Positions 8,393 to 56,504 of a stretch of 64,000 bases of DNA are shown piece after piece; position 1 is the first letter of the stretch, and every line of letters starts with the position of its first letter. The notes beneath the pieces were generated by a model. That model had not been told where the DNA came from. It ran no database searches and saw only the letters and a list, made by a program, of their open reading frames with translations. Made by a program: the position numbers and the translations under genes. This DNA is from a virus (Duplodnaviria; Heunggongvirae; Uroviricota; Caudoviricetes). The stretch lies in the IMG/VR virus record IMGVR_UViG_3300035660_000003, positions 22,261 to 86,260 of that record; one strand, given 5' to 3'.

Positions 8393-8408
8393 TAATCAAT
8401 TGATTAAG
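8393..8408. repeat. 16-bp palindrome TTAATCAATTGATTAA
   Basis: exact match. Confidence 0.95.
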
Positions 8409-9327
8409 TTCTTCATACTTAGCACAGGACTTAGTATGGAGTCATACTCAAGCATATTGACCATGTTTCTAGGCATATCTGGTATGCTCGGATATGCTTG
8501 GATTATGTCTGGATATATCTAGTCATCGGCGAATTCGAAGAAGCCCCCGAAATGGCATACTCGATATGCCTGCGTGCATATGAAGTATGCTTCAATATAT
8601 CTGCAAGCATATCAATTCCGAACACGAATTAAACTGAGCAGATTTACCAATGAATGAAACTCCACGAAGGAACAAGTGAAACCTTTCACCAAAAACCGCA
8701 CCGAAATGTGCCCGCATTCAACCAACGAGTTCCAACCCAGACTAATTTTTCGAGCATATGCCCATTCAAATGACCAGTCAACGAGTCACCATCCCAGACA
8801 AGCCCGTGTCTAACCTGTCACTTTACAAACCATCGCAAATTCATTAACTAGACTAATTCATTAAGCTAGACTAGGATTCCCAAACCACAAATCATATGGT
8901 TAAAGGGGCAAATTAGGGCTATTTTTAGGCTTAGAATTGAGAATGGCGGGGGAGTTCGGGTTGGTTGGTTGAATTGTGCTTGTATTCAAGCTCAATACTA
9001 TTATAACCCCTACCCTTAACCTTAATCACGAATCCGCACCTATTCCGCACCTATTTATCATTAACATCCATATATAACAAGTTAAACAAGCTAACATGCC
9101 AGTTTTTAGGGTTAATTAGCTCTATAAGGTGTAGTTTGTGCCTTATTGGTTCGTGGTTAATGGTGTTGGTTGATTCGTTCGTTGCCTCAATTGAAAATAG
9201 GCAAATTATGAGGTTGTTTTCGGATTTCCGCACCGAAATAGGTTCGCTTTTCTAATCGCTTGATTTTGGTGGCTTAGAATTATAAGTTGAATTTTTGGTT
9301 GGTTTCAAGTCATGGTTCACGGTTTGA

Positions 9328-9343
9328 TTAATCAATTGATTAA
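9328..9343. repeat. 16-bp palindrome TTAATCAATTGATTAA
   Basis: exact match. Confidence 0.95.
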
Positions 9344-9399
9344 GTTTTTTGAGAAACCTAAAAATCGGCGGATTTAAGAAATGGTTCAAAAATTGGGAT

Positions 9400-9413
9400 A
9401 AGTTTTAAATATT
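9400..9413 (+). promoter_or_regulatory. TATA box aagttttaaatatt
   Basis: upstream of HNH gene 9444. Confidence 0.45.
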
Positions 9414-9443
9414 AGAACCGCATATTAGGTATTTGGTGTAATC

Positions 9444-9941
9444 ATGCCATTTAAAGATAAGAAATACGAAAAGAGCTATAAACACGGTTACTATTTGAAA
9501 AATAAGGCTAAAATCTTGCCTAACGTAAAAGATTATTACCGTAAAAATAAAACTCAAATTCTCATAAAAACAAAACAATATCGGTTAAAAAGTATGGATA
9601 AAATTAAGGCTTATTCTCAGAAAATCAAACTTAAAGCCTTACAAATTGTAAGCTATTCAGAAAAACCATTATGCGTTAATTGTGGTTGTGCAGATTTAAG
9701 AATCTTAGAAATTAATCACGTAAACCTTAACGGTTCTAAGGAATTAAAAACCTCTAAAAATGGCTTTAAATATAAAGGTAGGTCTTCCAGAAGCCTCTTT
9801 TTTGAAATAATCAATAAAAATCGCCCCGTTTCCGATTTAGAGGTCACTTGTAAGGTTTGCAACACAAAACATTATGTTGAAAAGAAATTTGGATTAAAAT
9901 TTAAGGTTGAATTTTTGCCAGAAAAAGAAAAAGGGGTTTAG
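9444..9941 (+). CDS. HNH (His-Me finger) endonuclease-like, K/Y-rich N-terminal repeats
   Basis: CVNCGC...EINHVN...CKVCNTKH; TATA-like box 9400-9413. Confidence 0.6.
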   Translation: MPFKDKKYEKSYKHGYYLKNKAKILPNVKDYYRKNKTQILIKTKQYRLKSMDKIKAYSQKIKLKALQIVSYSEKPLCVNCGCADLRILEINHVNLNGSKELKTSKNGFKYKGRSSRSLFFEIINKNRPVSDLEVTCKVCNTKHYVEKKFGLKFKVEFLPEKEKGV

Positions 9942-10234
9942 ATTAGGAACGATTCATTATTCACGGCAACCATTTGACTCGTTTGCTTCGTTGCGGTCTT
10001 AATTTGCTTTAGAATCGGGATTAAAAGCGGTTTCATGCGTTTAAGCGTCGAATTGACATAAATTAGGTATATATCGGTTTTTTCAACCCAAATCGTGTCG
10101 CTTTCTTTCCAATAACCCCGATTATGGTTTATTTCGGTAAGTCCGCCGCAGAGGTCAATTAAGGCTTTTTTTGCCGAATCGAGCATTTTTAAATCCTCTT
10201 TTTCCGAATGCGTCACGAATATTTCAATTCTCAT
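9938..10234 (-). CDS. hypothetical protein
   Basis: 98-aa ORF, terminal gene of MoxR/vWA operon direction. Confidence 0.5.
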   Translation of the reverse strand: MRIEIFVTHSEKEDLKMLDSAKKALIDLCGGLTEINHNRGYWKESDTIWVEKTDIYLIYVNSTLKRMKPLLIPILKQIKTATKQTSQMVAVNNESFLI

Positions 10235-10261
10235 TCAAATCACCTCTTTTCGAGTTTCTTT

Positions 10262-55612: not shown

Positions 55613-55874
55613 CCCCCTTACTAAACATTATTCGGTTTAATTTATAATAGAATAATTGCATTTCCAAAGGCATTGCATTCCATTGCTTGATTAAGGCTCT
55701 CTTAATCCGCAGTTTGGTTAATCTTTTCAATAGTATTTCTGGTATTAGTAGAATGGTTAGATAAACCACTTCCATGATGAATGATTTGACTGGATGTTTC
55801 TTTTTGATTTGTTGTGGACACTCGTAAGGACATGATTCGGGTGTTGCACAATGCTCACACATTTTGTGGTTCAC
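55605..55874 (-). CDS. hypothetical protein
   Basis: 89 aa. Confidence 0.45.
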   Translation of the reverse strand: MNHKMCEHCATPESCPYECPQQIKKKHPVKSFIMEVVYLTILLIPEILLKRLTKLRIKRALIKQWNAMPLEMQLFYYKLNRIMFSKGGE

Positions 55875-56169
55875 CCCCTTCTTTCACGTCGCCATTTTCA
55901 GTTATTTTTTGGTCTTCATACGGACTCATTATTCGTCTGTAGAATTCCAATCTAGCCGAATCAAGAACTTTTAAGGCATTACTTTTAATTTCAAAGTTTC
56001 CATGAGCATAAATATCCACTAGAAGACGGTAGATTGCATAAACAACATCACCATTATCGTGTGTTCCCGAATCTGTAGAACTTTTCAGGAGTGCAACAAG
56101 TTTATTGATTGCTTCATCAAAATTTGGACGTTTTTCTTTCTTTATGTATGGCATATTAATTCCCCTCAT
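55855..56169 (-). CDS. hypothetical protein
   Basis: 104 aa. Confidence 0.5.
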   Translation of the reverse strand: MRGINMPYIKKEKRPNFDEAINKLVALLKSSTDSGTHDNGDVVYAIYRLLVDIYAHGNFEIKSNALKVLDSARLEFYRRIMSPYEDQKITENGDVKEGGEPQNV

Positions 56170-56392
56170 GATTAGTTTTTGTGTGAATTTTTGTTATGCA
56201 GAATAGACATTCTTGAACAAGTTCTTTCTTCCCATCGGTTCGTTCAATTCTTTGAATTCTGACTTTATGACCACAAGTGAGGCATGGTTCGTCGGCAATA
56301 ACTACGGTAGTTTTCCCAATAGCATCATTGATTTCTTTGCGTTCTTCTTGGGTGAGATTTTCTAATGGTATTCTTATTCGTGCTGGTTTCAT
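56156..56392 (-). CDS. small Zn-ribbon protein
   Basis: CLTCGH...CLFC; promoter 56422-56437. Confidence 0.5.
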   Translation of the reverse strand: MKPARIRIPLENLTQEERKEINDAIGKTTVVIADEPCLTCGHKVRIQRIERTDGKKELVQECLFCITKIHTKTNHEGN

Positions 56393-56421
56393 TTTATCAC
56401 TACTTATAGAATATATATCGA

Positions 56422-56437
56422 GACTTATAAACTTTGC
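56422..56437 (-). promoter_or_regulatory. TATA element
   Basis: gacttataaactttgc. Confidence 0.45.
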
Positions 56438-56445
56438 TATGCTGA

Positions 56446-56461
56446 TTAATCAATTGATTAA
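56446..56461. repeat. 16-bp palindrome TTAATCAATTGATTAA
   Basis: exact match. Confidence 0.95.
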
Positions 56462-56488
56462 GTATTACAATTCACAATGAAACCTCGT

Positions 56489-56504
56489 TTAATCAGTTGA
56501 TTAA
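56489..56504. repeat. palindrome variant TTAATCAGTTGATTAA
   Basis: central AGTT; paired with 56446. Confidence 0.9.

What the first reader, a model, noticed from the sequence alone, without database searches (positions are those of the whole stretch)
8393..56504. About 30 copies of the perfect 16-bp palindrome TTAATCAATTGATTAA, only in intergenic DNA
There are 20 exact copies. Nine more differ only in the centre (AGTT or AACT, the same site on either strand), and two have one arm mismatch. The extended consensus is AAAGATTAATCAATTGATTAATCTTTT. The copies occur in the 8-9.4 kb and 14.4-16.9 kb gene-poor regions, between small-gene arrays, and flanking single nuclease genes. Examples are 16696/17770 around an HNH gene and 45065/45746 around the LAGLIDADG gene. 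Two copies (29563, 32482) sit exactly 8 bp upstream of a TATA box. Exact sequence conservation suggests a binding site for a dimeric regulator. As RNA the extended form is a hairpin followed by UUUU in both orientations, so it could also act as a bidirectional terminator or insulator, or be a spread mobile repeat.
Basis: seen in the sequence. Interest (0 to 1): 0.8.

Follow-up and report, generated by a model that had tools for sequence, protein, structure and literature searches.

The report
Repeated palindromic operator in archaeal virus
A 16-base palindrome occurs 31 times in the non-coding DNA of an uncultivated archaeal virus, usually just upstream of promoters, and is most likely the docking site of a still unidentified dimeric gene regulator that other mobile elements of the same (probably Bathyarchaeia) hosts also use.

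Summary
The window holds 20 exact copies of TTAATCAATTGATTAA and 11 near-copies, against about 0 expected. All 31 lie outside credible coding sequence.

The window comes from a roughly 110-kb archaeal virus. It has BRE/TATA promoters, and relatives carry MCM and Alba genes. The host is probably Bathyarchaeia.

I read the palindrome (general form TTAATCA-NN-TGATTAA) as a DNA operator for a dimeric regulator, not an RNA terminator:
- The RNA hairpin is weak (-2.1 kcal/mol).
- T-runs flank it equally on both strands, although transcription is nearly all on one strand.
- It fills divergent promoter regions (3 of 3) and is absent from convergent gene ends (0 of 4).
- In relatives with few copies it sits 8-16 bp upstream of a TATA box.
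- Orthologous copies are 97% conserved against 80% for their flanks.
- Tandem copies in unrelated elements are spaced 42-43 bp, four helical turns (10.5-bp periodicity, p about 7e-4).

The same site occurs in integrated Bathyarchaeia elements that share no detectable proteins with this virus. Related viruses carry symmetric arm variants (TTAAGC, TTAAGT).

The regulator is not identified. Candidates are a host factor or the conserved 78-aa zinc-ribbon protein at 56156-56392, whose promoter carries such a palindrome in eight lineages.

This is a new variant of a known kind, of moderate interest.

The parts
8392..8407 (.). PAL copy, exact. Lies in the divergent region, 66 nt upstream of the TATA box (8318-8325, - strand) of gene 7820-8269.
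9328..9343 (.). PAL copy, exact. Lies in the divergent region, 60 nt upstream of the TATA box (9404-9411, + strand) of gene 9444-9941.
15469..15484 (.). PAL copy, exact. Lies in the gene-poor stretch 14.8-16.95 kb. Conserved in relative L281.
15646..15661 (.). PAL copy, exact. Gene-poor stretch, 66 nt upstream of a TATA-like box at 15572-15579 (- strand).
16043..16058 (.). PAL copy, exact. Gene-poor stretch.
16218..16233 (.). PAL copy, exact. Gene-poor stretch.
16360..16375 (.). PAL copy, exact. Lies 8 nt upstream of TTTATAAG (16384-16391, + strand). No ORF follows within 570 nt.
16696..16711 (.). PAL copy, exact. Lies 243 nt upstream of the HNH-like gene 16955-17344 (+ strand). Conserved in L281.
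17770..17785 (.). PAL copy, centre AGTT. Lies between the stop of 17847-18050 and the start of 17325-17720 (- strand).
18775..18790 (.). PAL copy, exact. Lies between 18838-19011 and 18492-18680 (- strand). Conserved in L274 and L278.
20238..20253 (.). PAL copy, exact. Lies in the divergent promoter region, 59 nt upstream of the TTTATAAG box of the leftward gene array.
20313..20328 (.). PAL copy, exact. Middle copy of the divergent promoter region. Conserved in L281, L274 and L237.
20405..20420 (.). PAL copy, centre AACT. Lies 9 nt upstream of TTTAAATA (20430-20437, + strand), the promoter of the HNH-like gene 20459-20944.
22178..22193 (.). PAL copy, exact. Lies 90 nt upstream of the TATA box (22080-22087, - strand) of 21793-22038.
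22360..22375 (.). PAL copy, centre AACT. Centre-to-centre 85 bp from the next copy.
22445..22460 (.). PAL copy, centre AGTT. Lies 76 nt after the stop of the HNH-like gene 22537-22905.
23286..23301 (.). PAL copy, exact. Lies 28 nt upstream of TTTATAAG (23250-23257, - strand), the promoter of 23079-23216.
23539..23554 (.). PAL copy, exact. Forms a tandem pair with 23585, spaced 46 bp here and 42-43 bp in the orthologous pairs of L281 and L237.
23585..23600 (.). PAL copy, exact. Partner of the tandem pair with 23539.
28588..28603 (.). PAL copy, exact. Lies 72 nt upstream of the TATA box (28508-28515, - strand) of the HNH-like gene 28094-28471.
29563..29578 (.). PAL copy, exact. Lies 8 nt upstream of TTTATAAG (29547-29554, - strand), the promoter of 29304-29516.
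29819..29834 (.). PAL copy, centre AGTT. Lies 46 nt after the stop of 29881-30138.
32492..32507 (.). PAL copy, exact. Lies 8 nt upstream of CTTATAAG (32476-32483, - strand), the promoter of the Band-7 gene 31554-32441.
32587..32602 (.). PAL copy, centre AACT. Lies 95 bp from 32492 and 50 nt after the stop of 32653-32865.
34097..34112 (.). PAL copy, centre AACT. Lies 4 nt after the stop of 34117-34539 and 26 nt upstream of TTTATAAG (34063-34070, - strand).
45065..45080 (.). PAL copy, centre AACT. Lies 13 nt upstream of TTTATATA (45044-45051, - strand), the promoter of 44768-45010, and downstream of the LAGLIDADG gene.
45745..45760 (.). PAL copy, exact. Lies 60 nt upstream of the TATA box (45677-45684, - strand) of the LAGLIDADG gene 45184-45639.
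46109..46124 (.). PAL variant TTCATCAGTTGATTAA. Supplies the stop codon of 46121-46336 and is followed by T7 on the - strand. Lies 66 nt upstream of the TATA box at 46035-46042.
46795..46810 (.). PAL variant TTCATCAGTTGATTAA. Supplies the stop codon of 46807-47358 and is followed by T7 on the - strand. Lies 71 nt upstream of the TATA box at 46716-46723.
56446..56461 (.). PAL copy, exact. Lies 14 nt upstream of TTTATAAG (56424-56431, - strand), the promoter of the p78 gene. Promoter-proximal member of a 43-bp tandem pair.
56489..56504 (.). PAL copy, centre AGTT. Distal member of the 43-bp tandem pair, 39 nt after the stop of 56544-56891.
56156..56392 (-). Gene p78, encoding a 78-aa protein with a CxxC...CxxC zinc ribbon. 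It is the candidate cognate regulator, or else the conserved prime target of the palindrome.
20100..20460 (.). Divergent control region with three PAL copies between the leftward array and the rightward HNH-like gene. No transcript can enter it from a flanking gene.

Best explanation
**What it is.** The palindrome (PAL; TTAATCA-NN-TGATTAA, two 7-bp arms around a free 2-bp centre) is a double-stranded-DNA operator. A sequence-specific regulator binds it as a symmetric dimer.

**Ancestral placement.** The site originally sits immediately upstream of the BRE/TATA core promoter, with 8-16 bp between PAL and the TATA box. That places PAL at roughly -40 to -60 relative to the transcription start. 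Relatives of this virus have only one to a few such sites.

**Expansion.** In this virus lineage the site has multiplied to 31 copies in 48 kb. It now marks about half of the promoters and nearly all larger intergenic gaps of the early/accessory region on the leftward strand. Tandem copies are set four helical turns apart, so two dimers can bind one face of the DNA cooperatively.

**Shown here.** The sequence facts, the placement, the conservation and the phasing.

**Inferred.**
- That a protein binds the site.
- The sign of regulation. Established knowledge of archaeal transcription places known activators (Ptr2, TFB-RF1, Lrp-type) directly upstream of BRE. That slightly favours activation or recruitment for the promoter-proximal copies. 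Copies abutting stop codons could also block read-through.
- The identity of the regulator. A host (probably Bathyarchaeia) factor is favoured, because mobile elements that share no detectable proteins with this virus carry the same site. The virus's own 78-aa zinc-ribbon protein (56156-56392) is the best virus-encoded candidate.
For: 1. Enrichment and placement: 31 copies against 0-0.4 expected, all outside credible genes, P about 5e-25.

2. Sharp sequence definition: 29 of 31 copies have perfect arms, there are no decayed copies, and only the two central bases vary. In relative L115 the arms are kept while the 4-bp centre varies freely.

3. Position relative to promoters:
- Four window copies lie 8-9 nt from a TATA box, against 1.4% expected for random intergenic positions (p = 8e-4).
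- Across all genomes the spacing peaks at 8-9 nt (9 cases) and 12-16 nt (8 cases).
- In relatives with few copies nearly every copy is promoter-proximal.

4. Divergent and convergent regions:
- Divergent promoter regions, which no flanking gene transcribes into, carry copies in 3 of 3 cases in the window and 2 of 2 in L285.
- Convergent gene ends carry copies in 0 of 4 cases.

5. Purifying selection: orthologous copies are 96.7% identical against 79.9% for 60 nt of flank.

6. Helical phasing:
- Among 45 adjacent pairs with non-homologous spacers, 11 are 42-43 bp apart.
- Further pairs fall at 32-33, 51-53, 83-85, 95 and 104 bp.
- A Rayleigh test at a 10.5-bp period gives R = 0.45, p about 7e-4, phase 0.

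7. Use by other elements: the same palindrome, upstream of the same kind of BRE/TATA, occurs in integrated elements of Bathyarchaeia MAGs. These include an integrase-bearing locus and contigs of 2.47 Mb and 861 kb, with no protein homology to this virus.

8. Lineage variants change both arms symmetrically: TTAAGC-N4-GCTTAA and TTAAGT-N4-ACTTAA.

9. The p78 promoter carries such a palindrome in eight lineages. In L316/L317 and in L120 it is the only copy in 10-16 kb.
Against: - No binding protein is identified. Pfam found no HTH or RHH regulator among my 125 ORF calls. The p78 model matches no known DNA-binding fold.
- About half of the window copies are 55-100 nt from a TATA box or have none nearby. 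A fixed activator geometry therefore does not hold for all copies.
- Two copies overlap stop codons and are followed by T7 runs, which looks like a terminator.
- Symmetric arm changes between lineages would also preserve a hairpin.
- The phasing statistic is dominated by the 42-43 bp class. Some pairs I counted as independent may be distant orthologs.
- The host assignment rests only on the labels of metagenome-assembled genomes.
Confidence: 0.6

Rival explanations
1. Stoperator-like silencing. PAL binds a repressor, for instance an immunity repressor of a temperate virus or of resident integrated elements. The repressor both occludes promoters and blocks elongating RNA polymerase at many intergenic sites, keeping the whole early region silent until it is removed. 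This also requires protein binding. It differs from the best explanation in the sign and mode of action.
For: - There are about 30 identical sites in short intergenic spaces plus promoter sites, the layout described for mycobacteriophage L5 stoperators (PMC9283540).
- Several copies sit 0-50 nt after stop codons.
- In small integrated Bathyarchaeia elements the PALs lie in the divergent control region next to an RHH-like gene, like a lysogeny switch.
- One such locus carries a tyrosine integrase.
Against: - No integrase or repressor is seen in the 64-kb window.
- The site is palindromic, whereas stoperators are asymmetric and orientation-dependent.
- Promoter-proximal copies lie upstream of BRE/TATA rather than over it. 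That is not where known archaeal repressors usually bind (established knowledge, not tested here).
- The RHH assignment is weak: Pfam RHH_3 at E = 0.0014, below the family cut-off, in one protein only.
Confidence: 0.2
2. RNA-level signal. PAL is transcribed at the 3' end of the upstream unit and folds into a hairpin. With the following U-run the hairpin terminates transcription, or it stabilises or processes the transcript. The symmetric form would work in both directions.
For: - Most copies lie between a stop codon and the next promoter.
- 14 of 31 copies have at least 5 T in the 8 bases that follow on the transcribed strand.
- Copies 46109 and 46795 overlap stop codons and are followed by T7.
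- The full 28-nt extended form folds at -10.3 kcal/mol.
Against: - The core hairpin is only -2.1 kcal/mol, and many copies in their own context reach only -2.8 to -3.2.
- T-rich flanks are as frequent on the untranscribed side (13) as on the transcribed side (14).
- Copies in Bathyarchaeia elements have A-runs or no runs at all.
- Copies fill divergent regions and are absent from convergent ends.
- All copies share one stem sequence, and even the loop-closing A and T are invariant, which a structure-only signal does not need.
- A 42-43 bp phasing has no meaning for a terminator.
- Archaeal termination needs oligo-T, not hairpins (established knowledge, not tested here).
Confidence: 0.1
3. Cassette boundary or recombination linker. 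PAL is a short shared sequence at the edges of small gene cassettes (nuclease genes, ORFans). It promotes exchange or insertion of cassettes between co-infecting viruses, as proposed for the promoter-plus-stem-loop cassettes of T4-type phages. Alternatively it is a REP- or MITE-like mobile repeat.
For: - Copy number differs greatly between relatives, from 1-3 per 10-20 kb in L120, L112 and L316 to 1.3 per kb in L281 and L237.
- Copies flank the LAGLIDADG gene and lie next to four of five HNH-like paralogs.
- An HNH-like gene sits next to PAL 20405 in the window, where L274 has only 140 nt.
Against: - The repeat does not extend beyond 16-28 bp and has no body, terminal repeats or target duplications.
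- No transposase or RAYT-like gene appeared in the Pfam family lists. The whole-set list showed only 25 of 72 families, and about 18 larger ORFs were not individually resolved.
- Positions are conserved in synteny, and the sequence is conserved above the flanks.
- The fixed distance to TATA and the helical phasing point to a function in place.
Confidence: 0.07
4. A site for replication, partition or packaging, comparable to ORB, parS or pac sites.
For: - The site is a 16-bp perfect palindrome, like parS.
- Six copies cluster in an AT-rich gene-poor stretch at 14.8-16.95 kb.
- Four copies cluster in the packaging-gene region in L285.
Against: - The copies are spread over at least 55 kb and are tied to promoters.
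- No ParB, Orc1/Cdc6 or small-terminase gene was recognised next to the clusters.
- The same site is used in small integrated elements in front of ordinary promoters.
Confidence: 0.03

Closest known systems
Stoperators and operators of cluster A mycobacteriophages (L5 gp71 repressor)
   Same: Both have twenty to thirty or more copies of one short exact motif spread over a viral genome. In both, the copies are confined to promoters and short intergenic spaces and mark transcription-unit boundaries (PMC9283540).
   Different: Stoperators are 13-bp asymmetric sites. A monomer binds them, and they are oriented with transcription. PAL is a perfect palindrome, so it implies a dimer and is orientation-free. 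It sits upstream of an archaeal BRE/TATA, its binding protein is unknown, and temperate growth of this virus is not shown.
Operators of archaeal Lrp-type regulators, for example Ss-LrpB of Saccharolobus solfataricus
   Same: Both are AT-rich palindromes of 15-16 bp, each contacted by one dimer. They occur singly or as regularly spaced multiple sites with cooperative binding (PMC4046817). From memory, the three Ss-LrpB boxes are about 41-42 bp apart, the same four-turn spacing as the PAL tandems.
   Different: The sequence differs (TTGCAAAATTTGCAA against TTAATCAATTGATTAA). No Lrp/AsnC gene was detected in the window. PAL is used by viruses and integrated elements at many sites rather than at a few host operons.
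Upstream activating sites of archaeal activators (Ptr2 of Methanocaldococcus jannaschii, TFB-RF1 of Pyrococcus furiosus), and the palindromic Thermococcales glycolytic motif bound by Tgr/TrmBL1
   Same: These are dyad-symmetric sites placed directly upstream of BRE/TATA, where the bound protein helps recruit TBP or TFB. For the Thermococcales motif the effect depends on its position relative to the promoter. This comparison is from memory and was not tested here.
   Different: Those sites belong to host regulons with a known protein. For PAL the sign of regulation is unknown, and half of the copies are not promoter-proximal.
Promoter-plus-stem-loop (PeSL) cassettes of T4-type phages
   Same: Both are repeated short regulatory modules that flank small ORFs and nuclease genes in variable regions of a large viral genome. 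This comparison is from memory.
   Different: PeSLs are promoter-plus-hairpin units thought to act as recombination linkers. PAL is separate from the promoter, has a weak hairpin, is conserved in place, and shows helical phasing.
Intrinsic bidirectional terminators
   Same: Both have an inverted repeat flanked by an A-run and a T-run and lie between genes.
   Different: The PAL stem is AT-rich and weak. The stem sequence is identical in all copies. The runs are symmetric irrespective of transcription direction. Copies are absent from convergent gene ends.

Membership tests
Operator of a dimeric transcription factor | Dyad symmetry with conserved arms and a tolerant centre | tested here: met
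   29 of 31 copies have perfect arms and only the central 2 bp vary. In L115 the arms are kept and the 4-bp centre is free.
Operator of a dimeric transcription factor | Non-coding placement with a preferred position relative to the core promoter | tested here: met
   All 31 copies are outside credible genes. The spacing to TATA peaks at 8-9 and 12-16 nt, with p = 8e-4 for 8-9 nt in the window. About half of the window copies are distal.
Operator of a dimeric transcription factor | Sequence conserved above the neutral flank in orthologous positions | tested here: met
   Core 96.7% against flank 79.9% over 19 orthologous comparisons.
Operator of a dimeric transcription factor | Helical phasing of multiple sites, implying cooperative binding on one DNA face | tested here: met
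   11 of 45 dereplicated adjacent pairs are 42-43 bp apart. The 10.5-bp periodicity has p about 7e-4.
Operator of a dimeric transcription factor | A cognate DNA-binding protein that binds the site | not testable with these tools
   No HTH or RHH regulator was found by Pfam. The candidate p78 has no fold match. EMSA or DAP-seq is needed.
Intrinsic hairpin-plus-U terminator | A stable hairpin in the transcript | tested here: not met
   The core folds at -2.1 kcal/mol. In their own context, copies range from -2.8 to -10.6 kcal/mol.
Intrinsic hairpin-plus-U terminator | A U-run on the transcribed strand downstream of the hairpin | tested here: not met
   T-rich flanks occur 14 times on the transcribed side and 13 times on the opposite side. 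They are absent in the copies of Bathyarchaeia elements.
Intrinsic hairpin-plus-U terminator | Location at the ends of transcription units, including convergent ends, and not in divergent regions | tested here: not met
   Convergent junctions carry copies in 0 of 4 cases. Divergent junctions carry copies in 3 of 3 cases in the window and 2 of 2 in L285.
Archaeal oligo-T terminator | A run of five or more T directly at the 3' end of the unit | tested here: inconclusive
   About 7 of 31 copies have T5 or longer on the - strand, notably 46109 and 46795 with T7. These runs could terminate on their own, independently of PAL.
Mycobacteriophage-type stoperator | Many identical sites in short intergenic spaces and at promoters | tested here: met
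Mycobacteriophage-type stoperator | An asymmetric site whose orientation follows the direction of transcription | tested here: not met
   The site is a perfect palindrome. The AGTT and AACT centres show no strand preference.
Mycobacteriophage-type stoperator | Bound by the immunity repressor of a temperate phage | not testable with these tools
   No repressor or integrase is present in the window. An integrase is seen only in the unrelated PAL-bearing element L193.
REP/BIME or MITE-type mobile repeat | A repeat unit with a body, terminal repeats or target duplications, and a cognate transposase | tested here: not met
   The unit is only 16-28 bp. No transposase family appeared in the Pfam lists for the window, which were incomplete for about 18 larger ORFs.
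parS or ORB-type partition or origin site | A few clustered copies next to parB or orc1/cdc6, or at the origin | tested here: not met
   The 31 copies are dispersed over 48 kb and tied to promoters. No ParB or Orc1 domain was detected.

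The most novel reading that the evidence does not exclude
PAL is the operator of one master regulator of Bathyarchaeia. That regulator may be host-encoded, or it may be carried by resident integrated elements. Several unrelated mobile elements, a roughly 110-kb virus group and small integrating elements, have wired their control regions to it independently. 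In this virus the site was multiplied into a genome-wide silencing or insulating network, an archaeal palindromic counterpart of mycobacteriophage stoperators. This would be the first regulatory circuit linking viruses, integrated elements and host in this uncultivated archaeal class.
Probability: 0.2. Interest if true: 0.75.

Novelty: new variant of a known kind. Interest (0 to 1): 0.55.

Why it matters
Nothing is known about gene regulation in viruses of Bathyarchaeia, an abundant and uncultivated archaeal class. The one survey of their viruses that I checked does not mention promoters or regulatory motifs (PMC10848311).

This finding supplies four things:
- a precisely defined, testable operator, TTAATCA-NN-TGATTAA, placed 8-16 bp upstream of BRE/TATA, with tandem copies at 42-43 bp;
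- a map of about 15 transcription units in a large archaeal virus;
- lineage-specific arm variants that can be used to hunt for the co-varying regulator;
- a sequence tag that links otherwise unrelated mobile elements to the same host group.

It also makes two ideas directly testable. One is whether archaeal viruses use many-site operator networks like mycobacteriophage stoperators. The other is whether mobile elements share a host regulator.

Tried and rejected
**Searches that found nothing**
- Megablast and tblastn against GenBank phages: no match.
- IMG/VR scans with the Top6A-like protein and with a tandem-PAL pattern: no match.
- An IMG/VR scan with the single 16-mer: only single chance hits.
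- tRNA search and Rfam: nothing at gathering thresholds, and only one weak snoRNA-like chance hit in 8-24 kb.
- Literature searches for the exact sequence and for comparable archaeal-virus motifs: nothing.

**The search for the regulator**
- Pfam on my 125 ORF calls found no HTH, RHH or Lrp family, only weak zinc-ribbon hits.
- PHROGs on the genes directly downstream of PAL promoters found nothing apart from the Band-7 gene.
- An HMM built from the RHH-like proteins of PAL-bearing integrated elements found no counterpart in the window.
- Those proteins themselves are barely recognised by Pfam.
- tblastn of all window proteins against the integrated elements found no shared protein next to PAL.
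- Proteins next to the PAL cluster in L285 have no DNA-binding Pfam domain.

**Ideas rejected**
- A larger mobile unit around PAL.
- A restriction-site explanation based on CAATTG or TTAA, because the centre varies and the site is enriched, not avoided.
- An apparent 55-72 nt 'distal' spacing class. I looked at it and did not interpret it, because the intervening sequences are unrelated and the intergenic lengths alone could produce it.

Full report
**1. The observation**

TTAATCAATTGATTAA occurs 20 times exactly and 31 times with at most two mismatches. Dinucleotide-preserving shuffles give 0.00 and 0.39.
- Nine copies differ only in the centre, AGTT or AACT, which is the same change read on either strand.
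- Two copies (46109, 46795) read TTCATCAGTTGATTAA.
- No other spacer length occurs, and only one further site in 64 kb has a single arm mismatch. The family is sharply defined and has no tail of decayed copies.

I called genes with a codon-usage score trained on the long ORFs; 83% of the window is coding.
- All 31 copies lie outside credible genes.
- Two apparent overlaps are a 35-aa ORF with a marginal score and an over-extended TTG start.
- Two copies merely provide the TAA stop codon of the upstream gene.
- If positions were independent, the probability of this placement is about 5e-25.

Otherwise the description is correct.

**2. What the window is**

The DNA is 35% G+C. It has a rightward block of large genes at 17-7230, then about 110 mostly small, tightly packed leftward genes.
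- It matches nothing in GenBank phages or IMG/VR.
- Pfam finds a stand-alone Top6A/Spo11 Toprim protein, a KaiC/RadA-like ATPase, an AAA_5 ATPase with a weak, below-cut-off VWA hit in a nearby protein, a Band-7 protein, a LAGLIDADG nuclease, a DNA ligase, sugar-modification enzymes and a ribosomal L10e/L16-like protein.
- Metagenomic relatives found through the Top6A-like protein lie on contigs of up to 108 kb. They carry MCM helicase and Alba genes.
- A 78-aa protein of the window is found unchanged on a 112-kb contig.
- The intergenic regions have textbook archaeal promoters: CCNNAANN-TTTAAATA or aaag-TTTATAAG, with the ATG 38-45 nt after the start of the TATA box.

This is therefore an archaeal virus of about 110 kb. 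A relative covering the DNA left of the window encodes a 568-aa protein that looks like a terminase large subunit by its Walker A motif, though I did not run it through Pfam.

Close relatives and PAL-bearing loci sit in MAGs labelled 'uncultured archaeon', 'Candidatus Bathyarchaeota' and 'Bathyarchaeia' from SPRUCE peat. Bathyarchaeia are the probable hosts. This rests on bin labels only.

**3. Anatomy**

Read on the leftward strand, the recurring picture is: stop of the upstream gene, then PAL, then a BRE/TATA box, then about 30 nt, then the ATG.

The gap between PAL and the TATA box is:
- 8-9 nt at 29563, 32492, 16360 and 20405 (the last two face rightward);
- 13-14 nt at 45065 and 56446;
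- 26-28 nt at 34097 and 23286;
- 55-100 nt at about ten further copies.
Seven copies have no canonical TATA box within 130 nt.

About half of the roughly 36 good promoter candidates have a PAL within 100 nt upstream. The long arrays at 34.1-45.0 kb, 46.8-56.4 kb and 56.5-64 kb have internal promoters without PAL.

The repeat does not extend beyond 26-28 bp.

**4. DNA operator or RNA hairpin?**

Several independent lines point to DNA.

a) The hairpin is weak. The RNA hairpin of the 16-mer is worth only -2.1 kcal/mol. Many copies in their own context reach only about -3.

b) The T-runs are symmetric. Nearly all transcription is leftward, yet the runs are equally common on both sides. The copies in other elements have A-runs or nothing.

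c) Placement follows promoters, not gene ends.
- All three divergent junctions of the window carry copies: 8270-9443 has 2, 14802-16954 has 6, and about 20140-20458 has 3.
- In the third junction the spaces between copies are too short (59 and 76 nt) to hold genes, so no transcript arrives there to be terminated.
- None of the four convergent junctions has a copy.
- In the relative L285, both PAL-bearing regions are again divergent control regions. The outermost copies lie 12 and 27 nt from the two outward-facing TATA boxes.

d) All copies share one arm sequence, and the loop-closing A and T are invariant in the window. A purely structural signal does not need either.

e) Orthologous copies in relatives at 70-88% nucleotide identity are 96.7% identical, against 79.9% for their flanks. 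The few differences are in the centre.

f) Tandem copies are helically phased.
- I collected adjacent pairs from the window, from relatives, and from loci found with a tandem-PAL pattern in species genomes and JGI metagenomes. I then merged pairs with similar spacers.
- This left 45 pairs, of which 11 are 42-43 bp centre to centre with unrelated spacer sequences. About 1.5 would be expected over the scanned range.
- Other pairs fall at 32-33, 51-53, 83-85, 95 and 104 bp.
- A Rayleigh test at a 10.5-bp period gives R = 0.45, p about 7e-4, phase 0.
- Sites placed whole numbers of helical turns apart are what cooperative binding of proteins on one face of the DNA predicts. Such spacing has no meaning for a terminator.
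- Caveats: the statistic is dominated by the 42-43 bp class, and some of my 'independent' pairs may be distant orthologs. I count about nine clearly separate loci.

**5. Comparative picture**

Relatives with few copies show what is probably the original use.
- L112 has two copies, 9 and 16 nt before a TATA box.
- L115 has five TTAATC-N4-GATTAA sites with free centres. Three lie 14-15 nt before a TATA box and one is inside a gene.
- L119 and L120 have TTAAGCAAYTGCTTAA, 8-24 nt before a TATA box.
- L114 has TTAAGTAACTACTTAA, 8 nt before a TATA box.
- L316/L317 have a single exact PAL in 10 kb, 8 nt before a TATA box.

The arms therefore change between lineages, and they change symmetrically. The window lineage (also L281 with 14 copies in 10.9 kb and L237 with 10 in 7.4 kb) has multiplied the site, and the positions are conserved in synteny.

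The same TTAATCA-NN-TGATTAA palindrome occurs in loci that share no detectable protein with this virus. It has the same 42-43 bp tandem spacing and the same position in front of CCNNAANN-TTTAAATA promoters. These loci include:
- a 2.47-Mb Bathyarchaeota contig (L147);
- an 861-kb contig (L240);
- an integrase-bearing locus (L193);
- a family of small elements in which the PALs lie between a 170-240 aa gene and a small gene whose N-terminus looks like a ribbon-helix-helix protein. Pfam support for that assignment is weak.

**6. Who binds it?**

This is not settled.
- Pfam on my 125 ORF calls finds no classical regulator.
- Sharing of the site by unrelated elements argues for a host factor, or for different element-borne factors with one specificity.

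One virus gene stands out. It is p78 (56156-56392), a 78-aa protein with an N-terminal strand-helix and a CxxC...CxxC zinc ribbon.
- In the window its promoter carries the 43-bp tandem pair 56446/56489.
- Its orthologs lie directly behind a PAL-type palindrome in L115 (15 nt to TATA), L120 (8 nt), L114 (8 nt, arms GC/GT), L119 (14 nt, arms GT/GC), L316/L317 (8 nt) and L314/L315 (two sites further upstream).
- In L120 and L316/L317 this is the only such site in 10-16 kb.
- The association fails in L112/L113. In L121-type relatives an inserted ORF interrupts it.

**7. Mechanism I commit to**

PAL is a double-stranded operator for a symmetric dimer. Its ancestral place is directly upstream of BRE/TATA. 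In this virus it is multiplied, so that it brackets about 15 transcription units of the early/accessory region.

By established knowledge of archaeal transcription, proteins that bind just upstream of BRE (Ptr2, TFB-RF1, several Lrp-type factors) activate by recruiting TBP or TFB, whereas repressors sit over BRE/TATA or the start site. This slightly favours activation for the proximal copies.

Copies that abut stop codons (34097, 46109, 46795), and tandem or 84-95 bp pairs, could in addition block read-through or form loops. A stoperator-like silencing network is the main alternative mode (PMC9283540).

Confidence that PAL is a protein-bound DNA operator is about 0.8, which is the best explanation plus the stoperator-like rival. 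Confidence in the promoter-upstream regulatory reading as stated is 0.6.

**8. Comparison with known systems, and novelty**

- The closest functional analogues are the L5-type stoperators. They share the many-identical-intergenic-sites layout, but they are asymmetric and bind a monomer.
- Next are archaeal Lrp-type operators such as those of Ss-LrpB: a 15-bp palindrome, one dimer per site, and regularly spaced cooperative sites (PMC4046817).
- PAL fails the tests for an intrinsic terminator, a REP/MITE-type repeat and a parS/ORB-type site (see the membership table).
- I found no description of this motif, or of any regulatory motif, in Bathyarchaeia viruses.

I rate it a new variant of a known kind, a many-copy viral operator. 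The interest lies in the clean helical phasing, the sharing across unrelated elements of an uncultivated archaeal class, and the arm variants, which make the regulator findable.

Noticed in passing
window 51444-52073 (- strand): The virus encodes a ribosomal protein L10e/L16-like gene (Pfam PF00252, E = 8.6e-20). It is conserved in relatives L116, L117, L121 and L318.
   Followed up: partly
window 52592-54208 (- strand); L112 10001-12520: A stand-alone Top6A/Spo11 Toprim protein defines a family of 47 metagenomic relatives. Some members are about 838 aa, and their match to the window protein is split in two pieces, which suggests an inserted element such as an intein.
   Followed up: no
window 47333-48154 and 49392-50060 (- strand): Two paralogous genes carry a DruA (Druantia defence protein) domain, inside a viral genome.
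   Followed up: no
window 14802-16954: A 2.1-kb AT-rich stretch (30% G+C) has no credible ORF. It holds six PAL copies and several TATA-like boxes on both strands, and is only partly conserved in L281. It could encode small RNAs or be a replication origin.
   Followed up: partly
window 20329-20404 and 32508-32586: A related module of about 76-79 nt lies between two PAL copies set 92-95 bp apart, each pair ending 8-9 nt before a TATA box. The module runs TCTTT...CCCCACTTCTTCCGA...CTCCAAAA. The element GCAACCAGATTGGTCG inside the first module is invariant in L281, L274 and L237.
   Followed up: partly
window 23770-23825: A perfect tandem duplication of a 28-bp unit (AAAGGCTAAAGTAAACCTGCTAAGATTG) lies in a non-coding stretch.
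   Followed up: no
window 16955-17344 (+), 20459-20944 (+), 22537-22905 (-), 24183-24746 (-), 28094-28471 (-): A five-member family of Cys-rich HNH-like paralogs. Two members are inverted relative to the surrounding array. Pfam support for HNH is only weak (E = 0.009-0.06). A second pair of paralogs is 9444-9941 (+) and 54448-54954 (-).
   Followed up: partly
window, for example 34575-34582, 38547-38554, 54449-54456 versus 29547-29554, 42156-42163, 52579-52586: There are two promoter flavours: CCNNAANN-TTTAAATA and aaag-TTTATAAG (partly palindromic CTTATAAG). They may mark different temporal classes. PAL is not strictly tied to either.
   Followed up: partly
L147 2049-2283, L240 5170-5185, L272 204-245, L308 904-952: Small integrated elements in Bathyarchaeia contigs carry PAL copies. 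In L147 and L308 these lie in the divergent region between a 170-240 aa gene and a roughly 100-aa RHH-like gene followed by a coiled-coil protein, which looks like a lysogeny-type switch.
   Followed up: partly
L120 3440-3473: A tRNA-like 3' end (GGGGGTTCGAATCCCCCACC) lies directly before the PAL variant in this relative, which suggests a virus-borne tRNA gene. The window itself has none.
   Followed up: no
L122-L192 (Vibrio, Aliivibrio and Photobacterium loci): A conserved Vibrionaceae locus also has two TTAATC-N4-GATTAA sites 60-66 bp apart centre to centre. It is unrelated to the archaeal family and is probably a bacterial operator.
   Followed up: no
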